Below are positions 4,418 through 57,755 of a stretch of DNA of 64,000 bases, piece by piece. Positions within the stretch are counted from its first letter, which is position 1, and each line of letters starts with the position of its first letter. The stretch spans positions 3,706-67,705 of the forward strand of contig JAOAET010000028.1 of the NCBI GenBank assembly GCA_026416665.1. Direction: 5' to 3'. Source of the DNA: Candidatus Omnitrophota bacterium (lineage in GTDB: Bacteria; Omnitrophota; Gorgyraeia; Gygaellales; Profunditerraquicolaceae). The translations under genes and the position numbers were made by a program. The notes under the pieces were generated by a model. The model was not told where the DNA came from, made no database searches, and saw only the letters and a program-made list of their open reading frames with translations.

Positions 4418-4428
4418 AAAATTCTCCT

Positions 4429-7018: not shown

Positions 7019-7083
7019 AGATAAAATTCTTTTTGATTTTCTCAGTTTTCTATAACAGTATTTAGAATAGGTTAAACCTGTTC

Positions 7084-8622: not shown

Positions 8623-8840
8623 TTTTAATCACCCTTTCTATTAAGATTTGAATTTCTAATTTTCTTTTACCTAAAAAATAATTTCTTTTTATCTCTACAA
8701 GGAGGAATTCACCTCCTTCTGCCTTGGGATTACTCCTCGGCGTAATCTTTTTTGAAAAATAATTTTATAAGAATAAAAAAAACACCCCGTTGCCTCAACG
8801 TAATATCTGTTTCCATTTAAACAAGGATGTTTTACAGCCT

Positions 8841-20545: not shown

Positions 20546-20547
20546 AA

Positions 20548-21123: not shown

Positions 21124-21125
21124 AG

Positions 21126-24610: not shown

Positions 24611-25033
24611 TTACTCAAGAGCAGTAAAGTTACCACCTGTAGCGTTATTCCTATACATCAATACACCTGATGTGTCCACCATAAAATCTCGGTTACCTGT
24701 AGTTCCAGGAGTAATGGGAAAAGCATAAGCCGTAAAACCAGAAGTATCCCCAGACAAGGAAAAACTGTACCCTTGTTTAGTACCACTGGCAAGTATAGCA
24801 TCAATATATGGTGGATTTCCGCTGCCTAAAACTGAAAGATTAGCAGGATAACTAGGATTGGCAGCACGATAGGTATGCGCAGAAGAAGCAATTGTCTTCA
24901 AGGCTGCAATGGCTGCTGATTCATTAGCTGCTAATCTTGCCCGCAATAGGTTAGGTATAGCAATGGCTGCCAATAAGGCAATAATGGCTACAACTATCAT
25001 AATCTCTACAAGAGTAAAACCGCGTCTGTTCAT
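24611..25033 (-). CDS. pilA: Type IV major pilin
   Basis: MNRRGFTLVEIMIVVAIIALLAAIAIPN, a textbook type IVa pilin N-terminus. The gene has a strong SD (AGGAGGAG) and its own promoter. Confidence 0.8.
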   Translation of the reverse strand: MNRRGFTLVEIMIVVAIIALLAAIAIPNLLRARLAANESAAIAALKTIASSAHTYRAANPSYPANLSVLGSGNPPYIDAILASGTKQGYSFSLSGDTSGFTAYAFPITPGTTGNRDFMVDTSGVLMYRNNATGGNFTALE

Positions 25034-25262: not shown

Positions 25263-25373
25263 TTATTAAACTTGAAGTTACCCCTTTGGCAGCACGGCTG
25301 TCCAGTGTATTGCTGGACCCTTTGGCTTTGCGTCCCAAGATTACTCTTGGTTTGCCTTTTCAGTAGGTATCTT
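25229..25373 (-). ncRNA. Candidate ~140-nt small RNA or pilA upstream leader, defined by the promoter and terminator above
   Basis: No ORF. The region is bounded by a perfect -35/-10 and an intrinsic terminator, and contains several internal hairpins (GTCCAG...CTGGAC, CCAAG...CTTGG). Confidence 0.3.
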
Positions 25374-45802: not shown

Positions 45803-46174
45803 TTAGATGTTTTGAGTGTTTTTTAAATGCCCTTTTTGCACAGAAAGGTCTTCCTTTGAGAAATTCAAAAATTTTATTCCTACTTCAAAGGGGTAACGCG
45901 AATCATCAATACGTTTACTCCAGACTACTTTTCCTTTAGTTCTAATAATTTTGTCGCTGTTAGAAATTTTTATTTCTAAATCAAGGATAGTCTCTGGTTC
46001 AAGTTTATGAAGAACAGGTAAAGCAATTCCAAGTTCTGAAATATTTTTTGTTCGAGAACCGCTTTTCAACAAACTATTGGCAAGAGAATATTTTGTCTCA
46101 AGATTTTTTGTTATCCTCACAGTGATCCTGCGTTCTTGCATAACCGTTCTCTCATTAAAATACATTACAAACAA
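45803..46174 (-). CDS. PilZ-domain c-di-GMP-binding protein
   Basis: RRITVR (RxxxR) and NISELG (D/NxSxxG), the two PilZ motifs. Confidence 0.55.
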   Translation of the reverse strand: MFVMYFNERTVMQERRITVRITKNLETKYSLANSLLKSGSRTKNISELGIALPVLHKLEPETILDLEIKISNSDKIIRTKGKVVWSKRIDDSRYPFEVGIKFLNFSKEDLSVQKGHLKNTQNI

Positions 46175-46450
46175 TATTATAACATCGATATTTTTTTTAT
46201 CAATTTTCTAGTTCTTACGACTTTTTTAAATTTTATTTAAAAATTAAAAATACAAAAATAAGCTGTTTTCTTCAATGGTCAAATCTCAATAAAACTTTGT
46301 AGCCTTTTGTTTATTCTAGTTTTTAAAATAACCTTAGAAAAACAAAGATTTTAGTTCTTATGAAAAGGTAAGAGAATTTAACTAAGTCGGTTAGAATATA
46401 TTTTAGGGAATAGTTACTTTAAGAATTTTATTGTTACTCTTGTATTTATT

Positions 46451-47185
46451 TTACTTAATCTTAGCTTCCTCGATTGCCTCAAGGACTGCATTTATTTCAA
46501 AGGGTTTAACCAAACAGGCGCGTAATTTTAGTTTCTCAACTTCTTTTTGCATCTCTTCAATATAGCCAGTCATCAGAATTATTTTAAGGTTAGGGTTAAT
46601 ATCTAATAGTTTACGATACAGTTCTAGACCATTAATGTCACTTAAACGAATGTCCAAAAATATTATTGTAAAATTTTTTTTCTGCACTTGTTCCAAAGCT
46701 TTTTGCCCCGTATCCACTGCTGTAACATTACACTTTGCTGTTTTTAGAATCCGTTCAAAAAGCTGACGTATATCTGCATCGTCATCAATTACTAAGACAT
46801 CTAATAATTGGTTGTCCATACCTAAAAACTCTTGTTCTATAAACTGGGAAAGTTCTTGAAGGTCAAAGGGTTTACGAATAGTTGTAAAAATACCAATCTT
46901 TTTTGCTTCAGCTAATTTGTCTTCTACAGAATAACCTGTCATCATTACAAACTTTGCTTTTGGGTTAATCTGCTTCATTTTTTTTAATATCTCTATTCCA
47001 TCCATTCCCGGCATACGCACGTCTAAAAAAACCCAATCGAAATTTCCTTTTTTTAATTCTTCTAAAGCTTGCTGTCCATCAGAGGCAACAGTTACTCCCA
47101 AACCCTTTAGCTCAAATAACTGCTTTAAAAGACCCCGCACACACGCCTCATCATCAACAACAAGCACTTTCACTGGTGGTTTCAT
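46451..47185 (-). CDS. Response regulator with two tandem receiver domains
   Basis: Two REC modules (VLVVDDE...DVRMPGMDG and VLVIDDD...DIRLSDINGLE), no output domain. Confidence 0.8.
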   Translation of the reverse strand: MKPPVKVLVVDDEACVRGLLKQLFELKGLGVTVASDGQQALEELKKGNFDWVFLDVRMPGMDGIEILKKMKQINPKAKFVMMTGYSVEDKLAEAKKIGIFTTIRKPFDLQELSQFIEQEFLGMDNQLLDVLVIDDDADIRQLFERILKTAKCNVTAVDTGQKALEQVQKKNFTIIFLDIRLSDINGLELYRKLLDINPNLKIILMTGYIEEMQKEVEKLKLRACLVKPFEINAVLEAIEEAKIK

Positions 47186-47595
47186 AATTCATCACCCCTT
47201 GTTTTATTTAGGGTTGCAATTTTACTTAGCAAACTCAACTCCAAGTAACTTAAATTAAAAGGTTTAGTAATATAATCGTATGCCCCTTCTTTTAAAGCCT
47301 CTTCCGCAATTTCTCTCTCTGCATAGGCAGTAATCATAATTACCGAAGTCTCGGGATATTTTGCCTTTATCTTGCGCAAAATCTTTATTCCGTTTACTCC
47401 TGGCATTTTAATGTCCAAAAACACTACATCCCGTTTTTCCTGCTCTAAGAAAAGAAGTGCCTCCTCGCCATTTTGAGCACAAGATACATTCGTAAAACCT
47501 TTTTGTCGCAAAAACCGTTCTAAAAATTCTCTAACTGCCTTCTCGTCATCCACGATAAGAATTTTCTCTTTTTTAGCTTCTGTGTTTATATCCAT
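47182..47595 (-). CDS. Single-domain (CheY-like) response regulator
   Basis: REC domain (ILIVDDE...DIKMPGVNG...KP). Confidence 0.85.
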   Translation of the reverse strand: MDINTEAKKEKILIVDDEKAVREFLERFLRQKGFTNVSCAQNGEEALLFLEQEKRDVVFLDIKMPGVNGIKILRKIKAKYPETSVIMITAYAEREIAEEALKEGAYDYITKPFNLSYLELSLLSKIATLNKTRGDEL

Positions 47596-47613
47596 AGCCT
47601 AATCTCCTTCTTT

Positions 47614-49698
47614 CTAACCACTGGTAGTCAAAACATTATTACCTTGCTCTATAACCGGTAGTCTTATTCTAAAACAAGTGCCTTCTCCTACGTTGCTTGA
47701 AACACTAATGTCTCCTCCGAGATCTTTTATAATACTGTAAACCAAAGACAGTCCTAAACCCGTTCCTTCTCCTATTTCTTTAGTAGTAAAAAATGGCTCA
47801 AATATTCTTTCTATATTCTCTGCAGGTATCCCAATTCCTGTGTCAGATATTTCCCAGATAATTTCTTTTTTTTGCCTATCATAACTAGTTTTTATTTTGA
47901 TAGTTCCATTACCCGTATTTTTTTTCTTAATTGCCCAACGCGCATTTGAGAGTATATCAAACAGTACCTGCTGGATGAGCTGTTCATCTCCAAGGAGCGC
48001 AGGCACATCTAAGGCAAGTTCTTTTTCAATAATTATATTTTCCAAGCGAAGGTCATGGGCGATAATTGCCACAACTTTTTCAACCTGCTCATTAATGTTA
48101 ACAGGTATCTTTCTTCCTTTAGATGCATGGGAAAAATCAAGCAGTGCCCGAGTAATTTTGACACAACGTTGGGCAGATTCTTCAATAATTGCAAGTAATT
48201 CTTTAAATTCATTGATATTAAAATCCTTTTTTTCTTGGGCAAGCATCTTGATAAGTTGAACATTGTTAAGAACACCGGTTAAAGGATTATTAATTTCATG
48301 AGCTACGCCTCCTGCTAAAGTACCTAATGAAGCCATTTTTGCTGCCTGAATTAACTGATTCTGGACTCGTTTCAACTCCTCATATGCCTTCTTAAGTGCC
48401 TCTTCAGTATTCTTAATAGCAGTAATGTCTCGCACCGTCTCAATAGCACCGACAATAGTGCCATCTAAGTCATATAATGGCGAAGCAATCGCCCAAACAT
48501 ACGCGCCATGGTTGTTATTTAGTTTGGGAACAAATACCTCTACAGTAAGCTTATTTTCTATGGCAGTTAGTCGCGGATAAAAATTTTCTGCCTCTATAGT
48601 CGGGTCAAGTAGCAAATCTACAAGAATCGGTCTTCTTTCACCATAAAACGGTAGCGCATATTCGTAATCACCTTTTCCTATAATATCTTTTGCAAGAATA
48701 CCTGTAAACTGTTCCATAGCTTTATTCCAAAAAATAACTTTTCTGTTAGAATCAATAACAAAAGTAGGGTCAGGCAAGAAATCAATTATATTAGCAATAT
48801 CCTGCTTTGACTTCATTAATTCTTTCTCAATACGTCTTCGCTCTTCTATTTCAAGCTGTAAAAGAAAGTTATACCTCTCTAATTCCTCTTTACGCTGTTT
48901 TTCCTTTTGGAGTAAATTCTTAAGTTCTTCAGTCATAGTATTGAAATACTCAGTAGCCAGCCCAATTTCATCATAATGAACAATCTTTAATCTTCCTGAA
49001 AAATCCCCACTTTTTACTCTCCGCATTCCATCAATAAGCCTGTCTATGGGGTATAAAATAATGCGTTTGAAAAATATCAAGATAGAAAAAGAAAGGATAA
49101 ATACTCCTAACGTAGACAAAATAATGTTTATATTTCTACTTTGTTTTACTTGCTTTAAAACTGACTCCCAATCTAATCCTATTCTTACTACTCCCAGAAC
49201 CTTGTCTTCTCTTCCATGACAGGGATAGCAGGATTTTTCATTAAAAATTGGGATGTGCTCAATAATTGTCCATCTCCCTGTTCTTTTTCTCTTCTCTATC
49301 TTCAAATAGGGTTTTCCTGTTAAGGAATCTTTTAGAGTATCAGAAATAGGTATTTGCCCAATTAAACTTAAGTCGGTGCTCCGACGAATAAATCCATTTT
49401 TATCAGTTAAATGAATCATGGCAACCGCTGGCAGTTTACTGTATTCGTTAAACTGCTTTTGAATAATATCTTGATCACCATTTAACATAGGATTGCGCAT
49501 AGCAGTTAAGATAACCTGTCCCAGTTGTGCGGCATAATTAAAGGCTAATTTTTCTAATAATGAACGTTGATAATAAATATTTATAGCGCTGATTAGTGCC
49601 AAAATAAATAAAACCGCGGAACAAAAAACAAATATAGCTTTTAACCATAATGAATTTCTTAAGATAATTTTTCCTATTTTTTTATCCCATAACTTCAT
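47614..49698 (-). CDS. Membrane sensor histidine kinase: periplasmic CXXCH sensor, HAMP, PAS, HisKA, HATPase
   Basis: Two TM helices flank a ~145-aa periplasmic domain ending in SCYPCHG. The cytoplasmic part has a HAMP, then a PAS, then a HisKA (HEINNPLTGV) and an HATPase (GTGLGLS). Confidence 0.85.
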   Translation of the reverse strand: MKLWDKKIGKIILRNSLWLKAIFVFCSAVLFILALISAINIYYQRSLLEKLAFNYAAQLGQVILTAMRNPMLNGDQDIIQKQFNEYSKLPAVAMIHLTDKNGFIRRSTDLSLIGQIPISDTLKDSLTGKPYLKIEKRKRTGRWTIIEHIPIFNEKSCYPCHGREDKVLGVVRIGLDWESVLKQVKQSRNINIILSTLGVFILSFSILIFFKRIILYPIDRLIDGMRRVKSGDFSGRLKIVHYDEIGLATEYFNTMTEELKNLLQKEKQRKEELERYNFLLQLEIEERRRIEKELMKSKQDIANIIDFLPDPTFVIDSNRKVIFWNKAMEQFTGILAKDIIGKGDYEYALPFYGERRPILVDLLLDPTIEAENFYPRLTAIENKLTVEVFVPKLNNNHGAYVWAIASPLYDLDGTIVGAIETVRDITAIKNTEEALKKAYEELKRVQNQLIQAAKMASLGTLAGGVAHEINNPLTGVLNNVQLIKMLAQEKKDFNINEFKELLAIIEESAQRCVKITRALLDFSHASKGRKIPVNINEQVEKVVAIIAHDLRLENIIIEKELALDVPALLGDEQLIQQVLFDILSNARWAIKKKNTGNGTIKIKTSYDRQKKEIIWEISDTGIGIPAENIERIFEPFFTTKEIGEGTGLGLSLVYSIIKDLGGDISVSSNVGEGTCFRIRLPVIEQGNNVLTTSG

Positions 49699-50093
49699 TG
49701 CTTTGAATTCCTCACAGCTAAAATGCGGTTTATAATTTCTGTCAAATTAAAAGGCTTATGCAATAGCTCAAAGTTGTGTCTGTTAATTTCTTCAATTAAT
49801 CTATCTTCACCATAGGCAGTAATAATATAAATTTTGGCATTGGGTTTTTTTTGGTGTATCTTTAAAGCTGTATCACAACCATTTAAACCCTGCATACGCA
49901 AATCTATAAAATATAAATCACAGCAAATTTTATCAGTTAGCTCTAAAGCCTTTTGCCCATTCTCTGCTTCATAAAGTTTTACATCAGTTAACTCGGCAAT
50001 ACGCCGGAATAATTGCCGAATTACCAAAGCATCATCAACAACCATAACTTTAAAAGGTGTTGAACTGTTATGTTGCTGTCCGTAGCTTTCCAT
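49695..50093 (-). CDS. Single-domain response regulator
   Basis: REC domain (VMVVDDALVIRQL...DLRMQGLNG). Confidence 0.8.
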   Translation of the reverse strand: MESYGQQHNSSTPFKVMVVDDALVIRQLFRRIAELTDVKLYEAENGQKALELTDKICCDLYFIDLRMQGLNGCDTALKIHQKKPNAKIYIITAYGEDRLIEEINRHNFELLHKPFNLTEIINRILAVRNSKQ

Positions 50094-50106
50094 ATTTTTG
50101 TGCGAT

Positions 50107-50301
50107 TTACTCTTTTTTTACTGAATTTATAATCTGCTCAAGGTCAGTTTTTCTAAAACGACGATGACCTCCCAAGGTTCTAAATGGTCTTAACAATCCT
50201 TTTTTTTCCCAGTTACGTAAAGTAAGCGGTAAAACTCCTAATAACTTGGCAGCCTCAGAAATCGTCAGTATTTCTTTAACAGAATCTTCCTTCTTTCTCA
50301 T
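50107..50301 (-). CDS. Stand-alone excisionase/MerR-type HTH DNA-binding protein
   Basis: 64 aa: ILTISEAAKLLGVLPLTLRNWEKKGLL...GGHRRF, an HTH_17-like domain. Confidence 0.5.
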   Translation of the reverse strand: MRKKEDSVKEILTISEAAKLLGVLPLTLRNWEKKGLLRPFRTLGGHRRFRKTDLEQIINSVKKE

Positions 50302-50317
50302 CTTCTAACCCTAATTA

Positions 50318-50689
50318 TTAACCAGTTAATTCCCGAATCATTCGCACTAACTCTTGCAATTTTACTGGCTTAGAAAGATATAACCAGCCACCGATAATAT
50401 TCTTTTTTTGATTAACCTCTTCTTCTTCTACAATGGCAGTCAGAAATACAACTGGTATATTGCGCGTCTCTACATCTGATTTTAGCTCTTGTGCAATGTC
50501 TGGACCAGATTTTCCAGGCATCATGACATCAAGAAAAATAATATCTGGTTTAGTTGACTTTACCTTTGCTACTGCTTCTAGGGCATTGGAAACAGTAACT
50601 ACTGAAAATTCTTTTGTGTCTTCTAAGTTTTGTTTTAAAAAGAAACAAAAGTCCGTTTCATCATCAATAATCATTACTGTTTTTTTCAT
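50318..50689 (-). CDS. Single-domain response regulator
   Basis: REC domain (VMIIDDETDF...DVMMPGKSG). Confidence 0.85.
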   Translation of the reverse strand: MKKTVMIIDDETDFCFFLKQNLEDTKEFSVVTVSNALEAVAKVKSTKPDIIFLDVMMPGKSGPDIAQELKSDVETRNIPVVFLTAIVEEEEVNQKKNIIGGWLYLSKPVKLQELVRMIRELTG

Positions 50690-52385
50690 TTTCCTTCCTT
50701 TCTTTTAACGGTAAAACCACACTTACACGCGTTCCTTTTCCAAGTTCACTTTCTATTAAAATTTTTCCATTGTGGTTTTCTATAATCATCTTGGCCATAG
50801 AAAGACCCAGACCTGTTCCACGCCTGTCGCGTTTAGTGGTAAAAAATGGTTCAAAGAGTTTAGACAAATTTTCAGGTGATATACCTTCTCCGGTATCAGT
50901 GACTTCCATAACACAGGCAGGTTTATCACCCAAAGCAGAATGTCTCGGATCAAAAAATGTGCGGATAAGCAAACTTCCACCATTGGGCATAGCATCCGTG
51001 GCATTAGAGAAGAGATTAAACAATACCTGCTGTATTTGATTACGGTCAACATATACGGTAGCATTATCATCAGCAAACTCGGTCTCAATACGAATATTCC
51101 TATTGGGAACGCGGTATTGAAATAATGCTAAGGCCTCAGTTACCAAATCATGACAAGTCACATATTCCAACACTGAGTTAGAAGGTCTAGCAAAGCGAAG
51201 TAGGTTAAGGATAATGGCGTTTGCCCGAAGAGTTGCTTCTTTCATTTTTTGTAAAGCTATAACAATGTTTTCTTCAGCAGCACTTAAACGAGCCTCTAGA
51301 TACTCCACACCACCTAAAACTATGGCTAAGGGGTTTTTAACCTCATGAGCAATACCTGCAGAAAATCTTCCTAATGCGGCTAATTTCTCGGACTGAATCA
51401 ACTGTGCCTGCGCTTGATTGAGTTTATCAATAGTCACATTCAAATCATAAATTTTTCTCTGTAACTGTTCATAAAGAGACGCATTTTCTAAAGCAATTGC
51501 TGCCTCATCAGCTAAAATACCAAGCAGTGTCTGTTCACGAGCAGTAAATCTTTCACCATCTGCTTTGTCTGATACATTAAGCACACCAAAGAGTTTATCT
51601 TGTGAAGCAATTGCAATGCTAACAAAAGTTGGTTCAGAATCCTTTTTGCTTTCATATCCATTTTCTGAATGAGAACGAAGATATAAAAAATTTTTTATAT
51701 TGCCACAGATTGATCTTCTTTCTAAAGCAACTTTTCCTGAGATACCTTCACCTAAAGGGATACGGGTGTTTTTAATAACTTCTTCTGGTAGACCTCTTGC
51801 TGCTTTTATAGAAAGGGTCTGGCTCTGTTCGTCTAATAAAAGTAGAGAACCACAGGTAGCGCCAGTTATTTCTAAAGCTGCTTGAAGAACTTTATTTAAA
51901 AGCTCACCTTTATCAATACTATTGGCAATAGAACGGCTTACTTCAAACATAGAAGCCAATTCACTTATTGCTACTTTATTTATATTTTTTCTCTGGCGTT
52001 CAAGACATCTCTCAACAATTGATAACAACTCAAACAAATTAAAAGGCTTGGTGATATAATCATAAGCACCTATTTTAAGCGCCTGAACTGCTGTTTCTAC
52101 GGTAGGATAACCCGTTAAGACAATCACCTCAACAAAGGGATTATGGCGTTTTACCTCCTTAAGTAAATCTAATCCACCTACCTTAGGCATCTTAAGGTCA
52201 GTAATCAATAAATTAATAAAATTATCTTGGGAAAGTAAAGATAAGGCGGCCTCCCCATTTTCCGCAGTAAAACAAGCAAAATCTTTTTGCTCAAGGAACA
52301 TTCGCAATGAATCACGAATAGCCGGCTCATCATCAACTACTAAAATTCGTGGCTTTTCATTACTCCGCACTTCCGTTTCATTCAT
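50664..52385 (-). CDS. Hybrid REC-GAF-histidine kinase
   Basis: N-terminal REC (ILVVDDEPAIRD...DLKMPKVGG), a central GAF, HisKA (HEVKNPLAIV), HATPase (GTGLGLSMAK). No TM segment. Confidence 0.85.
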   Translation of the reverse strand: MNETEVRSNEKPRILVVDDEPAIRDSLRMFLEQKDFACFTAENGEAALSLLSQDNFINLLITDLKMPKVGGLDLLKEVKRHNPFVEVIVLTGYPTVETAVQALKIGAYDYITKPFNLFELLSIVERCLERQRKNINKVAISELASMFEVSRSIANSIDKGELLNKVLQAALEITGATCGSLLLLDEQSQTLSIKAARGLPEEVIKNTRIPLGEGISGKVALERRSICGNIKNFLYLRSHSENGYESKKDSEPTFVSIAIASQDKLFGVLNVSDKADGERFTAREQTLLGILADEAAIALENASLYEQLQRKIYDLNVTIDKLNQAQAQLIQSEKLAALGRFSAGIAHEVKNPLAIVLGGVEYLEARLSAAEENIVIALQKMKEATLRANAIILNLLRFARPSNSVLEYVTCHDLVTEALALFQYRVPNRNIRIETEFADDNATVYVDRNQIQQVLFNLFSNATDAMPNGGSLLIRTFFDPRHSALGDKPACVMEVTDTGEGISPENLSKLFEPFFTTKRDRRGTGLGLSMAKMIIENHNGKILIESELGKGTRVSVVLPLKERKENEKNSNDY

Positions 52386-52415
52386 GAGAAAACCTCTTCT
52401 TTAGTTATCTTTTGT

Positions 52416-52787
52416 TTATTGTCTCAAAATACCCAGAACAGCACTCTTTAATTCATTTATATCTAAAGGCTTAGTAAAAATCTTTAGTATATTATATGGC
52501 TGTAACCGATAATCAACTTCCTTACTTAACCAACCTGTTATCACTATAACTGGGGGCGGCATTTTTAATTGATTTAACTTCTGTAATAATTGTTCTCCCG
52601 ACATAACAGGCATAACTAAGTCAAGCAAAATTAAATCTACTTTCCTATGTTGTATAAATTTCCAGGCATCTAGTCCATTTTGATAAACAAAAATGTTAAT
52701 TTTTTCTTTCGCTAAAATACGTTTAGTAAATTCCAAAATAATTTCTTCGTCATCAACTATGAGTAAATTTTTATATATTTTATCCAT
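52416..52787 (-). CDS. Single-domain response regulator
   Basis: REC domain (LLIVDDEEIILE...DLVMPVMSG). Confidence 0.8.
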   Translation of the reverse strand: MDKIYKNLLIVDDEEIILEFTKRILAKEKINIFVYQNGLDAWKFIQHRKVDLILLDLVMPVMSGEQLLQKLNQLKMPPPVIVITGWLSKEVDYRLQPYNILKIFTKPLDINELKSAVLGILRQ

Positions 52788-52850
52788 TTTAATTAAGTTT
52801 TAGCTCAATAATATAATAGCATATACTTTGTATAAATTCAAGGTAAATTT

Positions 52851-52877
52851 TATTATATTTTATTATATTTTATTATA
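52851..52877. repeat. AT-rich 10-bp tandem direct repeat (TATTATATTT x2.7) in a promoter region
   Basis: tattatattt tattatattt tattata, read directly, 65-90 nt upstream of the REC gene start at 52787. Confidence 0.5.
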
Positions 52878-52893
52878 ACAATTTTATCAAACT

Positions 52894-54606
52894 TTAGTTA
52901 ATGGAAAAAGTTAAGGTAACGGTAGTGCCTATTTGGGGAGTGCTTTGGAAATCAATACTGGCATTAAACTGGGAAAGTATTCTCTTTACCACAGAAATTC
53001 CTAAACCTAAACCCCTACCAGGTTGTTTAGTTGTAAAAAACGGTGTACCTATCTGTTTTAGATATTCCGGTAATATTCCCATTCCTGTGTCTGTAATACT
53101 TACTACTAAAGATTTCTTTGGTTTATCATAAATAGCTTTAACTGTAATTTTCCTTTCTTTTTCAGGTGGATTAGATTCTAAGGCATCCTTGGCATTAGCT
53201 AAGAGATTAAGAAATACCTGTTGTAATTGATTCTCATCTCCAAACAACTTAGGTAGTACCGATTCAAAATATGTCTGTGTCTTTATTGAAAGATTATTAA
53301 ACTCCACACTCATCAAATCTATTGACTTAAAGATTACTTTCTCCAAATCAATTGTTTTTCGTTCCTGGGTAGTTTTACGAGAAAATTGGCAAATACTTCC
53401 AATAATCTCCTTCATTCGGTCGGCTTGTTCTATAATCTTATCTAAATCCTTTCGTAAAGGATTATCGGGCTGTAAATCATAATATGCTGCCTGGGCAAAA
53501 CCTTTTATTCCTGTAAGAGGCTGATTTAATTCATGAGAAATACTTGCGGCAATCTGTCCCATAAAAGCAAGTTTTGAAGCATGTAGAAGCTCTTCCTGAG
53601 TCTTTTTTAATTCTGTTAAATCACGAATTGATTCTATTGCTCCAATTAAATTTCCCTTACTATCGTATAAAGGGCTAGCAACACCTGATAAATACGCCCC
53701 TTTATTATTATAAACACAAGGCACAAAAGTCTCTGCGTATAATATCCCATTATTTTCTTTTATATTTATGTATTTTTCTCTTACTTGCGGAGTATTTTTT
53801 AAAACAAGGTCAATCAAAATAGGTCTACGTTCACCGTAAAAAGGCAAGGCATATTCGTAGTTGCCTTTACCAATTATCTGCGCTGCTTTTATACCGGTCA
53901 TCTTCTCAATTGCCTTATTCCACGCAGTAACTCTGCCATTTTTATCAATTACAAAAGTAGCATCAGGCAAAAAATTGAGGATATTAAATAATTGGTTACG
54001 AGCCTCTTCAATTTCTGCTAATACCTTTTCTTTTTCAGTTATGTCCAGAAAAACACCAATTATTTTTTTTACTTTTCCTCTCTCAGTTACGGCATAACCG
54101 ATAGCCCTAAGGAATAACTGCTCTTTATTAGTATTATCCATCAACTCTATCTCTATATCAAAAGGTAAACCCTGCTTCACAGAGAAAAAGAACGCTTTTC
54201 TTAAGACATCCATAGACTCTAATGTGTAACTAAACCTATTAAGTTTAAAATGTTGAACAATGTTTTTCTGAAGAGAAACTTTTTGAGAAAAAAACATCTT
54301 TGGACAAGGTACAATTGCCTGTTTCTGTAGATTAAACTCCCAACCTCCTAGGTGTTCTAAACGTATGCTCTGTTCTAAGAATCTATCTGCTAGAATAAGG
54401 CATTCTTGGTCCTTTAACTGTTCTTTGTTTCTTTTATGTCCTGTATGAGATATCTTAAAACTTTCCGCTTTTTTTAGGGAAGACAGTTTCAATAAATTTG
54501 CTTGAATGTTAGATGCCCGTGAAACCTTAGATACCTGTTTTCTAAATTGCTTAAGTAATCTTTTTTCCCTTAAGGTATTTCTCTTTTTCTTATTGGTTTT
54601 AGCCAT
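52894..54606 (-). CDS. Cytoplasmic PAS-PAS histidine kinase
   Basis: Basic N-terminus, two PAS-like modules, HisKA ([10 protein letters not shown]), HATPase (GRGLGLGIS). The second PAS is a close paralog of the PAS in the 47614..49698 kinase. Confidence 0.85.
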   Translation of the reverse strand: [570 protein letters not shown]

Positions 54607-54730
54607 GCTTATCCTTTCTTAGATTTTCCCATTTATTTTTTTATGCTATTCCTGTTATTTTCTTCATAAAAACTCAACGGACTTTCAGGAGAATTACCTT
54701 ATAAAATAACCTGCATATTATTTAAAAATA

Positions 54731-54768
54731 AAAAAGCTATTTTACTGTTTTGGTAAAATAGCTTTTAA
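54731..54768 (-). terminator. Rho-independent terminator after the HTH-REC gene
   Basis: 11-bp perfect stem AGCTATTTTAC / GTAAAATAGCT flanked by A- and T-runs. Confidence 0.65.
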
Positions 54769-54814
54769 AGAAAGCATCTTTTTCCTCCTTACCCTCCAAA
54801 AAGGAGTAAAAAAA

Positions 54815-55378
54815 CTATTTTTGTCTTGCAGCCTCTAGAACTTTTTTCATCTCCTCCAAATCAAAAGGTTTGGCTATAGAAGTAAAAGCACCTAATCGTG
54901 CTGCCTCAATACTAGTCTCTAAATCTGCAAATGCACTTAAGATAATAACCGGTATAGATTTATCAAATGCCTTTATTCTTTTTAAGGTATCTATACCACT
55001 TAAACCGGGCATCCGCAGATCTAAGAGCACCACATCTGGCCTAGTTTTTTCTATTAATGCAAGACCTTCTTCCCCCGAAGAAGCAGTTAAAACCTGATAA
55101 TCAGCAAGTGCCTTTACGAAGTATTCACGGATAGCTTTTTCATCATCAATTATCAAAATTGTAGGTTTTGGTTTTGCCGTTTTATAATGCTGGGATAAAA
55201 TTGTTTTATCTTTTACCTGCGACATAAGCCATTGGTCAATAAGCTCTTTCTTAAAACGCCATTCACTGGAAATCTTGAAGGCAGGAATTTTACCTTCCCG
55301 TGCAAGCTTATACACAGTCATTTTGTTCATTTTAAGGTACTTAGCGGTCTGCTTTATATCCATTAAACTATCTTCCAT
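54815..55378 (-). CDS. Response regulator with N-terminal excisionase/MerR-type HTH and C-terminal receiver
   Basis: N-terminus IKQTAKYLKMNKMTVYKLAREGKIPAFKI (HTH_17-like); C-terminus ILIIDDEKAIRE...DLRMPGLSG (REC). Confidence 0.75.
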   Translation of the reverse strand: MEDSLMDIKQTAKYLKMNKMTVYKLAREGKIPAFKISSEWRFKKELIDQWLMSQVKDKTILSQHYKTAKPKPTILIIDDEKAIREYFVKALADYQVLTASSGEEGLALIEKTRPDVVLLDLRMPGLSGIDTLKRIKAFDKSIPVIILSAFADLETSIEAARLGAFTSIAKPFDLEEMKKVLEAARQK

Positions 55379-55428
55379 TTCTTTTTGTCCTCTCTTAAGT
55401 TAGAATATCCTTATTTATTATAAATAAA

Positions 55429-55812
55429 TTAATATTGTATCATATTATTTTTGATAAAATTTATCAGCTGAGCCACAGTTACAGGTTTAGCAATAAAAGG
55501 CCTGCCGGCAATAGTGTCTCCTTGAGGAGTTACTTCATAGTCTCTTATCAAGGCTGTCAGAAAACCCACTGGAATATTCTTTAACTCTGCATCTTCACTT
55601 AACTGATGGGCAATCTCACCACCGTCCATATCAGGCATTACAATATCCAAAAGTATAAAATCGGGTTTAAACTCTCTTGCCGCAGGAAGGGCGCGAATTC
55701 CTTTTGTTTCAGTTCGCACTTCAAACTCACCTGTTTGTTCAAGATTTAGCTTTACTAAACGACAGAAACTTTCTTCATCATCAACTATTAGAATCTTTTT
55801 TCTGCCCTTCAT
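55429..55812 (-). CDS. Single-domain response regulator
   Basis: REC domain (ILIVDDEESF...DIVMPDMDG). Confidence 0.8.
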   Translation of the reverse strand: MKGRKKILIVDDEESFCRLVKLNLEQTGEFEVRTETKGIRALPAAREFKPDFILLDIVMPDMDGGEIAHQLSEDAELKNIPVGFLTALIRDYEVTPQGDTIAGRPFIAKPVTVAQLINFIKNNMIQY

Positions 55813-57130
55813 CGTAAACCTCCTTCTGGTGAACTTTTAATGCAATCTCAACAATGACTCCTTTTCCTTGTTCAATTGGTTTATTGCGGATACTAATTAA
55901 TCCTTTATGGGAGGCAATAATGTTATTTACTACTGCCAATCCTAAGCCTGTTCCGCCTTGATTACGTTTGGTAGTAAAAAAAGGGTCAAAAACTTTAGAA
56001 AGATTTTGCTCGGGAATGCCACAACCACTGTCTTCTACAGTAATAACTAATACCTCATCTTGAGGCCGAAAATAGTCTTGTCTTCTTAAACCAATTAGAT
56101 GACTTGTGAGTTTTTCTGCCTTTATTAATCTCACCTTTATTTCTAATCTTCCACCTTCTGGCATTGCATGAATAGAATTTTCAAATAAGTTTATAAACAC
56201 TTGGGTCATTTTATTTACATCAATCAATGTTAATGGCAGATCAATAGGAATATCCTTCTCTACATTAATGTGAAATTTGTCCAATTGATGTTTTAATAGT
56301 AAGAGTGCCTTATCAATAGGTTGGTTTATCTGAACTGGTTGATTATCTAATTTTGAGATACTGGAAAAATCTAAAACACCCTTTATGATTGCGTCTGCGC
56401 GCATTGTTGCTTCTTTAAGGTCATTAAGAACAACAGTAATATCCTTCTCATAGATAGGAATTTTTTTTTCTAAATATTCAGTTGCCTGTAAAATAATTGC
56501 AAGAGGGTTTTTTACTTCATGAGCTATTCCAGAAGCAAGGCGTCCAATAGTTTCCATCTTTTCTGCTTGAATAAGTTGGGATTGTGTAGTTTTAAGCTCT
56601 TCGATAACTTTGCGTAATTGTTGTTCGGTGGCGTTCCTTTTGTTAATTTCAATTTCTAACTGACTTATTGTCTGTTGAAGTTGTTCTGTCCTCTGATTAA
56701 CCTGTTGTTCTAATTTCTCAGCGTAAAGTCGTAATTGCTCAAGCAATCGTTTACGTTCAATAGCATAACGTATAGAACGTTTAAGGGTCTGCGCATCAAC
56801 TGCTCCCTTAACAAGATAATCTTGAGCACCTGCATCTAAGGCCTCTAAAGCTAAATTCTCATCTGCAACACGTGTTAAAACTACAATGGGAATAAGCGGT
56901 TGTGCTTTCTGAACTTTCAGAAAAGTATCTAGACCTATGCCGTCGGGAAGAGTCAAATCCAAAAGAATTAATTGGCAAGTCTGTTGCTTTAAAAAAGAAA
57001 AAGCCTCAGAGAGATTTGGAACCTGAAATAATATAAAGTCTTTTAGTGCTGGCTCATTAAAAATATCCTTAACTATCCGTGCATCAAAGGCACTATCTTC
57101 CACCAATAAGATTTTTGTTTTAGTATCCAT
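55781..57130 (-). CDS. Hybrid REC-histidine kinase
   Basis: N-terminal REC (ILLVEDSAFD...DLTLPDGIG), coiled coil, HisKA (HEVKNPLAII), HATPase (GTGLGLAVV). Confidence 0.85.
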   Translation of the reverse strand: MDTKTKILLVEDSAFDARIVKDIFNEPALKDFILFQVPNLSEAFSFLKQQTCQLILLDLTLPDGIGLDTFLKVQKAQPLIPIVVLTRVADENLALEALDAGAQDYLVKGAVDAQTLKRSIRYAIERKRLLEQLRLYAEKLEQQVNQRTEQLQQTISQLEIEINKRNATEQQLRKVIEELKTTQSQLIQAEKMETIGRLASGIAHEVKNPLAIILQATEYLEKKIPIYEKDITVVLNDLKEATMRADAIIKGVLDFSSISKLDNQPVQINQPIDKALLLLKHQLDKFHINVEKDIPIDLPLTLIDVNKMTQVFINLFENSIHAMPEGGRLEIKVRLIKAEKLTSHLIGLRRQDYFRPQDEVLVITVEDSGCGIPEQNLSKVFDPFFTTKRNQGGTGLGLAVVNNIIASHKGLISIRNKPIEQGKGVIVEIALKVHQKEVYDEGQKKDSNS

Positions 57131-57431
57131 AAACTGGATTTGTTTTCGACTTTCTCGTAATTAATAAAATTTATTACGGTTAGGTAAAATTTCTTGCTGC
57201 TAATATCAATTTACTATGACTAACTCTTTAATTTTAAATCAATAATTTCTTAATTTATATATTTTACCATTTTTTAATATTTGCGCATCAGATTTTAATC
57301 ATTTTAAAAATATTTTTTGCAAAATTTAGTTTGTCTAAAAATATCTTAAATTTTTTTAGTTTTATCATTAACAAAAATTTATACCTCAACTAGCTAATGT
57401 CAACTATAATCTACACTACACACTTTGATAC

Positions 57432-57755
57432 TCAAATAGAATTATTCTGTAATATAGACTCTAGCTTAATACCTATTCTAAACTGTGCAGGGGCTATCTT
57501 TTTTTGCCAAACAATTGTCCCTTGCCTATAGATTGGCTGTTGGTTTTCCTGTAACATAACCCAAATATCTACGATTGCTTTTCTTACCATCACTCTTTTG
57601 GTAATAACTCCGAGGCCGTTTGCACTTATATCACAACATACACCTCTACGTAGAGCAATTCTTTTAGTATCAATAAGACGAAGCGGTAAATTACAATTAA
57701 GACGCCTAAATGTTCTTCTTTCTTTTCTATCTACAATATCCATATTATTAAACAC
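57432..57755 (-). CDS. PilZ-domain c-di-GMP-binding protein
   Basis: RRTFRR (RxxxR) and DISANGLG (DxSxxG). The start codon overlaps the stop region of the giant ORF by 8 nt. Confidence 0.6.
   Translation of the reverse strand: MFNNMDIVDRKERRTFRRLNCNLPLRLIDTKRIALRRGVCCDISANGLGVITKRVMVRKAIVDIWVMLQENQQPIYRQGTIVWQKKIAPAQFRIGIKLESILQNNSI

What the first reader, a model, noticed from the sequence alone, without database searches (positions are those of the whole stretch)
45803..57755. Dense phosphorelay island: 4 histidine kinases, 8 receiver proteins and 2 HTH units in 11 kb, bracketed by two PilZ genes
Gene order. Reading the minus strand from high to low coordinates: PilZ, REC-HK, REC, HTH-REC, terminator, PAS-PAS-HK, REC, REC-GAF-HK, REC, HTH, REC, TM-HK with CXXCH sensor, REC, REC-REC, then ~280 bp of AT-rich spacer, then PilZ.

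Output domains. None of the eight receiver proteins carries a classical output domain (no OmpR/NarL/NtrC DNA-binding, GGDEF/EAL or CheB/CheW domain). The only DNA-binding modules are two small excisionase/MerR-like HTHs.

Missing components. No Hpt protein, CheA or MCP is present.

Interpretation. Each kinase is followed by one to three CheY-like single-domain regulators, and two kinases themselves start with a receiver. This suggests a branched, multi-input phosphorelay or phosphate-sink network rather than four independent two-component pairs.

Suggested outputs. The nearby type IV pilus locus and the c-di-GMP (PilZ) bracketing point to control of pilus function, motility or surface behaviour. 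The adjacent giant enzyme is another possible output.
Basis: partly seen in the sequence, partly recalled or inferred. Interest (0 to 1): 0.7.

Follow-up and report, generated by a model that had tools for sequence, protein, structure and literature searches.

The report
Multi-kinase sensory island in Omnitrophota
An uncultivated Omnitrophota bacterium packs four sensor kinases and ten phospho-receiver domains into 11 kb. The only classical transcription-factor output is a little-known regulator that probably switches the island's own genes through a TATAAT-like repeat, and nothing links the island to the pilus genes.

Summary
There are 4 HisKA kinases and 10 intact receiver domains: 8 in 7 non-kinase proteins, 2 at the N-termini of kinases. 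There are also an HTH_17-REC regulator, a 64-aa BldC-like HTH, a hairpin terminator and two flanking PilZ genes.

The source is a Candidatus Omnitrophica MAG. The island core recurs, in the same or a rearranged order, in at least five other Omnitrophota lineages. The PilZ bracket does not recur.

The membrane kinase carries a periplasmic heme-c Cache sensor with an invariant CxxCH, so nitric oxide or redox is the likely signal. No Hpt domain is present, so this is not a classical phosphorelay. It looks like a two-tier multi-kinase network: two sensor kinases, then two receiver-gated kinases, each coupled to a CheY-like protein.

New here: the HTH_17-REC regulator belongs to a widespread, uncharacterised family (57-68% identical across phyla). 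Its genes are preceded by a conserved AT-rich TATAAT-type repeat. The best copy in the 64-kb window is a perfect 3x TATAATAAAA over the island's internal promoter. This points to feedback control of the island.

The proposed pilus, PilZ and giant-enzyme outputs are not supported. The pilus locus has its own c-di-GMP riboswitch.

The parts
55781..57130 (-). REC-HK: kinase gated by an N-terminal receiver (REC-coiled coil-HisKA-HATPase_c). First gene of operon unit 1.
   Evidence: Pfam. Orthologues 59% (L005) and 49% (L001) identical. Its receiver keeps D57/K109, with E at position 12.
55429..55812 (-). REC_a: single-domain receiver. Its start overlaps the REC-HK stop by 32 nt.
   Evidence: Pfam. 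Orthologues 85% (L005) and 77% (L001) identical. 41% identical to its paralogue REC_c.
54815..55378 (-). HTH_17-REC response regulator: winged-HTH residues 1-57, disordered linker, REC 73-186. The only receiver protein in the island with a DNA-binding domain.
   Evidence: Pfam. Family alignment. AF2 model. The public annotation starts at M52 and loses the HTH.
55396..55423 (-). Weak copy of the AT-rich repeat element, directly upstream of HTH-REC.
   Evidence: 11.0 bits and rank 8 in the 64-kb window with a leave-one-out PWM. 15.8 bits with the full PWM, but that PWM included this site in training, so the value is circular.
54732..54766 (-). Intrinsic-terminator-like hairpin ending operon unit 1.
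   Evidence: 14-bp stem followed by a T-run.
52894..54606 (-). Cytoplasmic (PAS)-PAS-HisKA-HATPase_c kinase. First gene of operon unit 2.
   Evidence: Pfam. 37% identical to the TM-HK over PAS plus kinase core.
52847..52890 (-). Internal promoter with predicted operator: TTGATA-17-TATAAT, with a perfect 3x TATAATAAAA tandem repeat. The TATAAT cores lie at 52877-52872, 52867-52862 and 52857-52852.
   Evidence: Top-ranked promoter-like site listed in the region, 11 of 12. Highest TRF score in the window, 62. Unique exact match to the pattern. The only site above 13 bits in the 64-kb window with a PWM trained on other loci, 22.3 bits. A triple repeat sits at the same position in L098.
52416..52787 (-). 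REC_b: single-domain receiver.
   Evidence: Pfam. Orthologue 43% identical in L005.
50664..52385 (-). REC-GAF-HK: second receiver-gated kinase.
   Evidence: Pfam. Orthologues 69% (L005), 57% (L001) and 45% (L011) identical.
50318..50689 (-). REC_c: single-domain receiver. Its start overlaps the REC-GAF-HK stop by 26 nt.
   Evidence: Pfam. Orthologues 58% (L001) and 49% (L011) identical.
50107..50301 (-). 64-aa stand-alone MerR/HTH_17 winged-HTH protein (BldC-like).
   Evidence: Pfam. Best NCBIfam match is BldC at 51 bits, below the 77-bit cut-off. Orthologue 58% identical in L001.
49695..50093 (-). REC_d: single-domain receiver specific to this lineage. Its stop overlaps the TM-HK start by 4 nt.
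   Evidence: Pfam. No reciprocal best hit in relatives.
47614..49698 (-). Membrane kinase: TM1, periplasmic sCache_heme sensor (C157-x-x-C160-H161), TM2, HAMP, PAS, HisKA, HATPase_c.
   Evidence: Pfam. CxxCH and M71 invariant in 14 orthologues. Sensor profile hits PDB 3b42/3b47 at E = 3e-5. AF2 pLDDT 91 with the CxxCH in a short helix between two strands. Foldseek hits WalK, GSU0935 and CitA.
47182..47595 (-). REC_e: single-domain receiver of the NtrC/AtoC-like type.
   Evidence: Pfam. Orthologue 58% identical in L001. 48% identical to the receiver of REC-GAF-HK and 42% to that of HTH-REC.
46451..47185 (-). REC-REC: dual-receiver protein. Last gene of unit 2; its start overlaps the REC_e stop by 4 nt.
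   Evidence: Pfam (two stretches). Orthologue 45% identical in L001. A 251-aa REC-REC occupies the same terminal position in L098.
57432..57755 (-). Flanking PilZ (RxxxR and DxSxxG present). Probably belongs with the giant gene, not the island.
   Evidence: Pfam. Its start overlaps the giant ORF's stop by 8 nt. A 300-nt gap separates it from REC-HK. Not conserved next to relatives' islands.
45803..46174 (-). Flanking PilZ (RxxxR and NxSxxG present). A separate transcription unit.
   Evidence: Pfam. It follows a 276-nt gap and has its own promoter-like site at 46203-46176. Not conserved next to relatives' islands.

Best explanation
The region is a two-operon, multi-kinase two-component network that a clade of Omnitrophota carries as a unit.

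Shown:
- Four catalytically intact HisKA kinases and ten receivers with intact phospho-acceptor pockets.
- No Hpt domain anywhere in the island.
- One membrane kinase senses through a periplasmic covalent heme-c Cache domain. The other sensing modules are cytoplasmic PAS and GAF domains.
- The kinases fall into two paralogue pairs. TM-HK and PAS-HK share a PAS subtype and an HE(I/L)N(N/Q)PLTG H-box. REC-HK and REC-GAF-HK share an HEVKNPLAI H-box, and each is translationally coupled to a paralogous CheY-like protein.

Inferred:
- The two sensor kinases form tier 1. They phosphorylate free receivers and the N-terminal receivers of the tier-2 kinases.
- The tier-2 kinases then act on their coupled single-domain receivers and on the co-operonic HTH_17-REC.
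- The surplus single-domain and dual receivers act as competing acceptors (sinks or connectors), or work through protein contacts.
- HTH_17-REC is the transcriptional output. It binds an AT-rich, TATAAT-type tandem repeat found in front of its own gene in many phyla.
- In this window that repeat lies across the -35/-10 of the promoter of the seven genes from REC_b to REC-REC, downstream of PAS-HK. Phosphorylation would therefore feed back on expression of most of the island, most simply by promoter occlusion.
For: - Domains.
- Receiver residues: D13, D57 and K109 (CheY numbering) are present in all 10 receivers, D12 in 9 and T87 in 9.
- Kinase motifs: the H, N, G1, F and G2 boxes can be read in the translations of all four kinases.
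- Heme sensor. The family is described in PMC12889525, where members fused to signalling modules behave as NO sensors.
- Operon structure: gene overlaps and short gaps, the terminator and the internal promoter.
- Conservation of the unit: L098 and L005 keep the window's order; L001/L033, L097 and L011 are rearranged.
- Paralogue pairs and receiver classes.
- HTH_17-REC family: 726 proteins at E <= 1e-10. All 119 full-length proteins among the top 120 carry PF12728 plus PF00072; the remaining entry is the window's own copy, truncated in the public annotation. They are 57-68% identical and come from Omnitrophota, Thermodesulfovibrionia, Elusimicrobiota and Deltaproteobacteria MAGs, plus MAGs labelled Planctomycetia or PVC group.
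- Cis-element, training set: with a leave-one-locus-out PWM, the best site of the whole locus lies within 170 nt upstream of HTH-REC in 13 of 25 loci, and ranks 5 or better in 20 of 25.
- Cis-element, independent metagenome set: rank 1 in 14 of 34 loci and rank 3 or better in 25 of 34. Of 48 sites of at least 18 bits in 427 kb, 29 lie upstream of HTH-REC (p = 3e-16) and 9 upstream of other kinase or receiver genes (p = 9e-5).
- Cis-element, this window: the single site above 13 bits in 64 kb is the 3x TATAATAAAA at 52847-52877.
- Cis-element, L098: the orthologous gap holds 3x AGATATAATTAAC.
- Precedent: BldC, a small MerR-like winged-HTH protein, oligomerises head-to-tail on AT-rich direct repeats (PMC5859096).
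Against: - No phosphotransfer data exist. The tier assignment rests only on architecture, gene coupling and 34-48% receiver similarity.
- The link between the repeat element and HTH-REC is by association (a motif in front of the regulator's own gene). Binding is untested.
- The element contains TATAAT and could partly reflect an unusual promoter architecture.
- It is quasi-palindromic: the 14-mer core ATATTATATAATAT is a perfect palindrome, and sites occur on both strands. Direct-repeat and inverted-repeat binding therefore cannot be told apart.
- The copy directly upstream of the window's own HTH-REC is weak (11 bits leave-one-out).
- The promoter of unit 1 (57131-57431) has no site above 9 bits.
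- Some training loci are close relatives of one another, which inflates the counts.
- In distant relatives (L003/L004) the heme kinase stands without any receiver nearby, so it does not strictly need the island.
Confidence: 0.55

Rival explanations
1. The island is a pile-up of independent, insulated two-component pairs produced by local duplication. Each kinase talks only to the receiver next to it. Each CheY-like protein has its own separate protein target. Co-location has no network meaning.
For: - Every kinase has a receiver gene immediately downstream, and three junctions are translationally coupled.
- The kinases and their neighbouring receivers form paralogue pairs that look like duplicated modules.
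- Helix-1 residues of the receivers fall into at least three distinct classes (read from the alignment), as expected for insulated pathways.
- Island composition varies between relatives, and REC_d has no orthologue.
Against: - Ten receivers face four kinases, and only one receiver protein binds DNA.
- The two N-terminal receivers on kinases keep intact acceptor sites and need a donor kinase.
- The set of modules stays together over 45-69% sequence divergence, and in two different chromosomal contexts.
- A shared cis-element places most of the island under one regulator.
Confidence: 0.25
2. One reading: the island controls type IV pilus function or surface behaviour through the flanking PilZ proteins and c-di-GMP, or it regulates the adjacent giant multi-domain enzyme.
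For: - Both PilZ proteins keep the RxxxR and (D/N)xSxxG c-di-GMP-binding motifs.
- The window does use c-di-GMP to control pili: a c-di-GMP-I riboswitch (62 bits) sits directly upstream of the pilin gene.
- One unrelated lineage (L070/L071) has two PilZ genes about 6 kb from its HTH-REC.
Against: - No GGDEF, EAL or HD-GYP domain was hit in any of the 42 window ORFs scanned with Pfam, including all island genes. Seven long ORFs at 402-9446 were not scanned.
- No PilZ lies beside the island in L001, L005, L011, L097 or L098.
- The upstream PilZ is coupled to the giant gene, and 276-300-nt gaps isolate both PilZ genes from the island.
- The pilus locus starts about 21 kb away, behind roughly twenty unrelated genes.
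- In the whole window, the predicted operator scores above 11 bits only inside the island.
Confidence: 0.1
3. The AT-rich repeat is not an operator. It is a lineage-independent strong-promoter or DNA-curvature feature, for example stacked -10 hexamers or an UP-like element. HTH_17-REC would then bind elsewhere, or act as an architectural or recombination-type protein like other Xis-family HTHs.
For: - The element contains consensus TATAAT hexamers and overlaps predicted -10 boxes.
- TA steps recur every 5 bp.
- HTH_17 is the excisionase family, and its best sub-threshold NCBIfam match is a defence-system HTH, MAD1.
Against: - Sites are about five times enriched upstream of HTH-REC, and also enriched upstream of neighbouring kinase and receiver genes, relative to all other non-coding DNA, which holds all the other promoters of those loci.
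- The element persists in loci with 47-51% GC.
- The HTH is nearly invariant across phyla, as expected for a conserved DNA target.
- No integrase or mobile-element genes accompany it.
Confidence: 0.15

Closest known systems
Myxococcus xanthus RedCDEF 'four-component' system (PMC2755868)
   Same: Several two-component proteins encoded together work as one pathway without an Hpt. [quoted passage not shown] From my own recollection (the paper was not opened), the first kinase is membrane-bound, and the regulators are a dual-receiver protein without output domain plus a single-domain receiver. TM-HK, REC_e and REC-REC here resemble that layout.
   Different: The island has four full kinases, two of them receiver-gated, ten receivers and a DNA-binding regulator. 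Sequence orthology to the Red proteins was not tested.
Geobacter GSU0582/GSU0935 and the sCache_heme (DUF3365/Tll0287-like) sensor family (PDB 3b42, 3b47; PMC12889525)
   Same: A periplasmic single-Cache fold with CxxCH on a short helix inserted between two strands. The sensor profile matches at E = 3e-5 with the motif aligned. The domain is fused through HAMP to a signalling output.
   Different: The output here is HAMP-PAS-HisKA kinase rather than a chemoreceptor. Pfam PF21563 is only a sub-threshold hit (22 bits against a cut-off of 27). Heme binding and the ligand are untested.
BldC family of small MerR-like winged-HTH regulators (PMC5859096)
   Same: The 64-aa HTH protein is a bare MerR/HTH_17 winged helix, and its best NCBIfam match is BldC. 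BldC's cooperative head-to-tail binding to AT-rich direct repeats is the best mechanistic precedent for the tandem-repeat element proposed for HTH_17-REC.
   Different: The BldC model score (51 bits) is below the curated cut-off (77). BldC has no receiver domain. Its repeat consensus (AATTxxxxC) differs from the TATAAT-type unit seen here.
Classical response-regulator transcription factors (OmpR, NarL, NtrC, LytTR classes)
   Same: A phosphorylatable receiver is joined to a DNA-binding domain by a flexible linker. Autoregulation from a site upstream of the regulator's own gene is common.
   Different: The domain order is reversed (HTH N-terminal, receiver C-terminal) and the HTH is of the excisionase/MerR type. 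No curated NCBIfam model reaches its cut-off, and no solved structure covers both domains.
Phosphate-sink and connector single-domain receivers (for example the CheY sink of Sinorhizobium chemotaxis, or LovR and MrrA in alphaproteobacterial stress signalling).
   Same: Output-less CheY-like proteins encoded beside kinases. They compete for phosphoryl groups or connect pathways.
   Different: No Che machinery, HWE kinases or PhyR-type partners are present. The role of each receiver here is only inferred.

Membership tests
Two-component system, HisKA-type kinases | H-box histidine in the DHp domain plus the N, G1, F and G2 boxes of the HATPase_c domain | tested here: met
   HisKA and HATPase_c score above the Pfam cut-offs in all four kinases. 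The motifs HE(V/I/L)xNPL, N-box, DxGxG, FxPFFTTK and GxGLGL can be read in the translations.
Two-component system, receiver domains | Acidic pocket (D12, D13), phospho-acceptor D57, T/S87 and K109 (CheY numbering) | tested here: met
   Alignment with CheY: D13, D57 and K109 in 10 of 10 receivers. D12 in 9 of 10 (E in REC-HK). T87 in 9 of 10 (S in HTH-REC).
Multistep His-Asp-His-Asp phosphorelay | An Hpt domain or a Spo0B-like histidine phosphotransferase between two receivers | tested here: not met
   No Hpt (PF01627) or Spo0B hit at E <= 0.01 in any island protein. No unassigned minus-strand ORF of 60 aa or more lies in the island, apart from two nested within kinase genes.
Multistep His-Asp-His-Asp phosphorelay | A hybrid kinase with a C-terminal receiver that accepts from its own His | tested here: not met
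   Both receivers fused to kinases are N-terminal: residues 7-118 of REC-HK and 14-124 of REC-GAF-HK.
Chemosensory (Che/Chp/Wsp-type) pathway | CheA, CheW, MCP, CheB or CheR encoded with the CheY-like proteins | tested here: not met
   None of these domains is hit in the island or in the other window ORFs scanned. Seven long ORFs at 402-9446 were not scanned.
sCache_heme (DUF3365/Tll0287-like) sensor domain | Conserved CxxCH on a short helix inserted between beta-3 and beta-4 of a single-Cache fold | tested here: met
   C157, C160 and H161 are invariant in 14 orthologues. In the AF2 model the motif lies in helix 112-118 between strands 100-109 and 124-133. Foldseek hits WalK, GSU0935 and CitA. 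The sensor profile hits 3b42/3b47 with the CxxCH aligned.
sCache_heme (DUF3365/Tll0287-like) sensor domain | Extracytoplasmic location and covalent heme c attachment | not testable with these tools
   The domain lies between two hydrophobic segments (about residues 20-42 and 190-212, read). Heme attachment needs a cytochrome c maturation system and spectroscopy. No ccm genes were looked for.
BldC family (NF033787) | A small winged-HTH protein of about 60-70 aa without effector or dimerisation domain, scoring above the curated model cut-off | tested here: inconclusive
   The 64-aa protein consists of the HTH only, and BldC is its best NCBIfam match, but at 51.4 bits against a cut-off of 77.
PilZ c-di-GMP receptors | PilZ fold with the RxxxR and (D/N)xSxxG motifs | tested here: met
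   PF07238 scores 42.9 and 40.6 bits against a cut-off of 22.5. RRTFR with DISANG, and RITVR with NISELG, can be read. c-di-GMP binding itself is untested.
OmpR/NarL/NtrC/LytTR response-regulator transcription factors | N-terminal receiver followed by a Trans_reg_C, GerE, Sigma54_activat plus Fis, or LytTR domain | tested here: not met
   No such domain occurs in any island protein. All NCBIfam matches are receiver-only and far below their cut-offs.
RedCDEF-like four-component system | Orthology to RedC/D/E/F, and phosphotransfer from RedC to RedD and from RedF to RedE | not tested
   Only the resemblance in architecture was noted (membrane kinase, single receiver, dual receiver).

The most novel reading that the evidence does not exclude
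HTH_17-REC is the founding example of an unrecognised, cross-phylum class of response regulators with reversed domain order (excisionase/MerR-type winged HTH first, receiver second). These regulators bind tandem TATAAT-like repeats laid over core promoters. In Omnitrophota they act as the autoregulated master switch of expandable multi-kinase islands that integrate periplasmic NO or redox sensing through heme-c Cache domains with cytoplasmic PAS and GAF inputs. Public annotation hides the family because gene callers truncate the HTH, as happened for this MAG.
Probability: 0.45. Interest if true: 0.65.

Novelty: new variant of a known kind. Interest (0 to 1): 0.5.

Why it matters
Omnitrophota are uncultivated, widespread and often ultra-small bacteria, and almost nothing is known about how they sense their surroundings.

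This island gives a concrete and testable wiring diagram: a heme-c Cache sensor, receiver-gated kinases, and a single DNA-binding regulator with a predicted operator.

The HTH_17-REC family is 57-68% identical across several phyla. It has no curated model, no solved structure covering both domains, and no paper that I could find. A defined operator makes it directly approachable by EMSA or DAP-seq with synthetic genes, so cultivation is not needed.

The case also shows that the island's DNA-binding output was invisible in the public annotation, because the gene start was called 51 codons too late.

Tried and rejected
- Exact-sequence look-up of the window's TM-HK returned nothing, although the identical protein P0001 is in the homologue database. 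The source was identified instead.
- NCBIfam gave only sub-threshold, receiver-level matches for every receiver protein. No named equivalog applies.
- Foldseek of the HTH-REC model against the PDB returned only receiver domains and no two-domain match.
- Rfam found no RNA family in the island, so the AT-rich repeat is not a known riboswitch or leader.
- Literature searches for HTH_17 or excisionase-type response regulators, and for Omnitrophota two-component systems, found no characterisation. The library is incomplete, so this is absence of evidence only.
- A magnetochrome-type reading of the CxxCH was considered and dropped. The motif is single and sits in a Cache fold homologous to GSU0582/GSU0935.
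- A chemotaxis-like pathway, a classical phosphorelay and a mobile-element origin were rejected. No Che, Hpt, integrase or transposase domains were found, and GC content and skew in the island match the rest of the window.
- The custom PilZ HMM was built from only two sequences and is insensitive. For L001-L004, L097 and L098, absence of PilZ rests on the precomputed Pfam tables.

Full report

All substantial ORFs in the 64-kb window lie on the minus strand.

| Coordinates | Content |
|---|---|
| 57432-57755 | PilZ |
| 55781-57130 | REC-HisKA-HATPase_c |
| 55429-55812 | REC |
| 54815-55378 | HTH_17-REC |
| 52894-54606 | PAS-HisKA-HATPase_c |
| 52416-52787 | REC |
| 50664-52385 | REC-GAF-HisKA-HATPase_c |
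| 50318-50689 | REC |
| 50107-50301 | 64-aa MerR/HTH_17 protein |
| 49695-50093 | REC |
| 47614-49698 | TM kinase: HAMP, PAS, HisKA, HATPase_c |
| 47182-47595 | REC |
| 46451-47185 | REC-REC |
| 45803-46174 | PilZ |

- A 14-bp hairpin followed by a T-run lies at 54766-54732, just after HTH-REC.
- No Hpt, CheA/W, MCP, GGDEF/EAL or classical output domain is hit.
- Three corrections apply. There are seven non-kinase receiver proteins with eight domains, giving ten receiver domains in all. The first 'PAS' of the PAS-PAS kinase is only a weak partial hit. The pilus genes are not close (see section 8).
- HMMs built from the island's own domains find no other kinase or receiver in the remaining 52 kb.
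- In a survey of 44,008 two-component genes, only 5.2% sat in triads and 1.7% in tetrads (PMC3018481). The density is therefore far from chance.

**2. Source and surroundings**

- The TM kinase is 100% identical to a protein of a Candidatus Omnitrophica MAG on a 69.9-kb contig.
- Downstream of the island lie a MiaB-like enzyme, a SPOR/TPR protein, MiaA, HflX, ClpB, HrcA, GrpE, DnaK and DnaJ.
- Upstream lies a 2077-aa ORF with HEAT, GNAT, UPF0146 and methyltransferase domains.
- GC content and skew in the island match the rest of the window. No integrase or transposase domain was hit in the scanned genes.

**3. State of the parts**

- *Receivers.* All ten keep D13, D57 and K109 (CheY numbering). 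Nine keep D12 and nine keep T87, with conservative E and S in the other cases. None looks like a pseudo-receiver.
- *Kinases.* All four show the H, N, G1, F and G2 boxes.
- *Gene spacing* defines two units. Unit 1 is REC-HK, REC_a (32-nt overlap), HTH-REC, then the terminator. Unit 2 has nine genes from PAS-HK to REC-REC, with gaps of 106 nt or less. It has overlaps at REC-GAF-HK/REC_c (26 nt), REC_d/TM-HK (4 nt) and REC_e/REC-REC (4 nt).
- *Upstream PilZ.* It overlaps the giant gene's stop by 8 nt and is 300 nt from REC-HK.
- *Downstream PilZ.* It follows a 276-nt gap and has its own promoter-like site.

**4. The sensor of the membrane kinase**

- C157, C160, H161 and M71 are invariant in fourteen orthologues of 38-58% identity.
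- A profile of the periplasmic domain hits PDB 3b42 and 3b47 at E = 3e-5 with the CxxCH aligned. These are the heme-c sensor domains of the Geobacter chemoreceptors GSU0935 and GSU0582.
- The AF2 model (pLDDT 91) places the motif in a short helix (112-118) between two strands.
- Foldseek returns the WalK, CitA and DcuS single-Cache sensors together with GSU0935 and GSU0582.
- This matches the definition of the sCache_heme family in a 2026 preprint. There, members fused to signalling modules behaved as NO rather than O2 sensors (PMC12889525).
The signal, NO or redox, remains an inference.

**5. Is the island a unit?**

The contexts of homologues are listed below.

- **L098** (51% GC): GAF-PAS-HK, REC, REC, HTH-REC, PAS-HK, REC, REC-GAF-HK, REC, TM-HAMP-PAS-HK, REC-REC. 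This is the window's order.
- **L005**: REC-HK (59% identical), REC_a (85%), HTH-REC (65%), a kinase (34%), REC_b (43%), REC-GAF-HK (69%), in the same order, until the contig ends.
- **L001/L033 and L097**: the same modules rearranged behind QueH. They run HTH-REC, REC-GAF-HK, REC, HK, then small HTH (L001) or REC (L097), then the heme TM-HK. In L001 there follow a dCache-HK, REC, REC-REC, two unrelated genes, REC-HK and REC.
- **L011**: HTH-REC, HK, heme TM-HK, REC-GAF-GAF-HK, REC, REC.
- **L003/L004**: more distant relatives with the L001 chromosomal backbone, but only the heme kinase and no receivers.

Eleven of the twelve signalling genes have reciprocal best hits in L001 and/or L005; only REC_d does not. 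The island is thus conserved within a clade, expandable, and has moved between chromosomal contexts. No PilZ lies beside it in any of these loci.

**6. The DNA-binding regulator**

- HTH_17-REC has 726 homologues at E <= 1e-10. The 119 full-length proteins among the top 120 all carry PF12728 plus PF00072 and are 178-221 aa long and 57-68% identical. The one remaining entry is the window's own copy in its truncated public form.
- They come from Omnitrophota, Thermodesulfovibrionia, Elusimicrobiota and Deltaproteobacteria MAGs, plus MAGs labelled PVC group or Planctomycetia.
- The HTH is nearly invariant.
- The AF2 model shows a winged HTH (residues 1-57), a disordered linker and a receiver.
- No NCBIfam model reaches its cut-off. 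No solved structure covers both domains. I found no paper on the family.
- The public annotation of this MAG starts the protein at M52 and so loses the HTH.
- Of 80 non-redundant family members, 51 have another two-component gene within 3 kb and 18 have three or more in the fetched flanks.

**7. A conserved cis-element**

- *Discovery.* Upstream regions of HTH-REC genes share an AT-rich element. The 28-nt consensus is about ATATAATATTATATAATATTTTATAATA. TA steps recur every 5 bp, and it reads as roughly three 10-bp units. The 14-mer core ATATTATATAATAT is a perfect palindrome.
- *Training set.* With a leave-one-locus-out matrix, the best site of the whole locus (both strands) lies within 170 nt upstream of HTH-REC in 13 of 25 loci. 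It ranks fifth or better in 20 of 25.
- *Independent test.* The matrix was frozen and applied to 34 non-redundant metagenome loci averaging 23,000 scored positions. It gave rank 1 in 14 and rank 3 or better in 25, typically at -55 to -90 from the start codon.
- *Enrichment.* Of 48 sites of at least 18 bits in 427 kb, 29 lie upstream of HTH-REC, a region holding 11.5% of the non-coding bases (p = 3e-16). Nine lie upstream of other kinase or receiver genes, a region holding 12% (p = 9e-5). Nine lie in other non-coding DNA and one in coding DNA.
- *In this window.* The only site above 13 bits in 64 kb is at 52846-52873 (22.3 bits). It is a perfect 3x TATAATAAAA at 52847-52877. That repeat has the highest tandem-repeat score in the window and is the unique exact match to TATAAT-N4 x3.
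- *Position.* It lies in the 106-nt gap between PAS-HK and REC_b. Its middle TATAAT is the -10 of the top-listed promoter-like site in the region, TTGATA-17-TATAAT.
- *In relatives.* The orthologous gap in L098 holds 3x AGATATAATTAAC and two matrix hits of 24.5 and 20.5 bits. L005 has a 17-bit site in the same gap.
- *Weak copy.* A weak copy precedes the window's own HTH-REC (11 bits leave-one-out).

The simplest reading is an operator for HTH-REC that autoregulates and, in this window, controls the seven genes from REC_b to REC-REC, downstream of PAS-HK. Because it overlaps the core promoter, occlusion (repression) is the default guess. BldC, a bare MerR-like winged HTH that oligomerises head-to-tail on AT-rich direct repeats, is the closest mechanistic precedent (PMC5859096). 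Binding has not been shown, and a special promoter architecture remains a rival.

**8. How it most likely works**

Pairwise comparisons give two kinase paralogue pairs:
- TM-HK and PAS-HK are 37% identical, share a PAS subtype and have the H-box HE(I/L)N(N/Q)PLTG.
- REC-HK and REC-GAF-HK are 38% identical, have the H-box HEVKNPLAI, and each is followed by an overlapping gene for a paralogous CheY-like protein. REC_a and REC_c are 41% identical.

The receivers most like one another are REC_e, the receiver of REC-GAF-HK (48% to REC_e) and the receiver of HTH-REC (42% to REC_e).

From this I infer a two-tier network. The sensor kinases phosphorylate free receivers and the gating receivers of the second-tier kinases. 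Those kinases act on their coupled CheY-like proteins and on HTH-REC, which is co-operonic with REC-HK and REC_a. A (REC-)HK, REC, HTH-REC order recurs in 7 of 47 loci with enough upstream sequence.

The surplus receivers would be sinks, connectors or protein-binding outputs. Without an Hpt domain this is not a classical phosphorelay. All transfer steps are inferred.

**9. The proposed outputs**

- The type IV pilus genes start with a pilin gene at 24611-25033, followed by pilin-like ORFs, PilM, PilN, an unassigned ORF in the PilO position, and a secretin, extending down to 17881.
- A c-di-GMP-I riboswitch (62 bits against a gathering score of 35) sits directly upstream of the pilin gene at 25285-25366. 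c-di-GMP control of the pilus is thus explained locally.
- The operator matrix scores above 11 bits only inside the island; its next-best sites in the window reach at most 10.9 bits.
- The PilZ bracket is not conserved in relatives.
- I therefore find no support for pilus, PilZ or giant-enzyme outputs, though protein-level contacts cannot be excluded.

**10. Comparison, novelty and verdict**

- *Known kinds.* Multi-kinase and multi-receiver two-component networks such as RedCDEF (PMC2755868), heme-c Cache sensors and BldC-like HTH proteins are all known.
- *What is new.* The particular assembly is new, and so is its conservation as an expandable island in Omnitrophota. The reversed-order HTH_17-REC family with its predicted TATAAT-type repeat operator also appears uncharacterised.
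- *Verdict.* I rate it a new variant of a known kind, with interest 0.5.

Noticed in passing
window 25285-25366 (-), with genes 24611-25033, 24100-24534, 23712-24125, 23156-23758, 22261-23217 and 17881-22139: A c-di-GMP-I riboswitch (Rfam RF01051, 62.3 bits, gathering score 35) lies directly upstream of a type IV pilin gene with the N-terminus MNRRGFTLVEIM. Pilin-like ORFs and PilM, PilN, an unassigned ORF in the PilO position, and a secretin follow. The pilus operon is therefore probably switched by c-di-GMP at the RNA level.
   Followed up: partly
window 57748-63981 (-), 2077-aa ORF: The tripeptide DGG occurs 9 times at fairly regular spacing (residues 90, 328, 602, 803, 975, 1221, 1493, 1689, 1919; 172-274 aa apart). 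Composition predicts 0.29 occurrences, and none of 2000 shuffles reached 9. It looks like a linker or processing motif between the HEAT, GNAT, UPF0146 and methyltransferase modules, possibly a polyprotein.
   Followed up: no
window 54815-55378 (-): The public (NCBI) annotation of this MAG calls the HTH_17-REC gene as a 136-aa 'response regulator' starting at M52. This drops the whole DNA-binding domain, which is conserved at full length in hundreds of homologues.
   Followed up: yes
window 47614-49698 and 52894-54606 (PAS domains); proteins P0009-P0120: The PAS domain shared by TM-HK and PAS-HK carries the motif GKG(D/N)YEYALPFYGERRPIL. It is about 45-52% identical to PAS repeats in multi-PAS SpoIIE phosphatases and regulators of Methanotrichaceae, Methanoregula and Syntrophales. 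This is a widespread anaerobe PAS subtype; I know of no ligand for it, and none was looked for.
   Followed up: no
L098 6028-6138; L001 6457-6484; L011 13179-13206; L022 11290-11317; L065 10694 and 18861-18925; L068 1267 and 3878; L073 10733; L035 10824: Secondary copies of the AT-rich repeat element lie in front of kinase or receiver genes next to HTH-REC in many relatives. These include a 3x AGATATAATTAAC array (13-bp period) in L098, at the same gap as the window's 3x TATAATAAAA (10-bp period). The change of period with a conserved TATAAT core is unexplained.
   Followed up: partly
L003/L004 10001-13354 compared with L001 5848-19198: The same chromosomal backbone (PEPCK, SAICAR synthase, QueH ... 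HI0933-like flavoprotein, FeoAB) holds only the heme kinase plus a CHASE4-PAS protein in one lineage. In another it holds an 11-gene two-component island. The island grows and shrinks in place.
   Followed up: partly
L070/L071 3535-4458: Two adjacent PilZ genes lie about 6 kb upstream of an HTH-REC gene and near a kinase-receiver pair, in a different lineage. This is the only other PilZ co-occurrence seen among roughly 60 loci, and the HMM used was insensitive.
   Followed up: no
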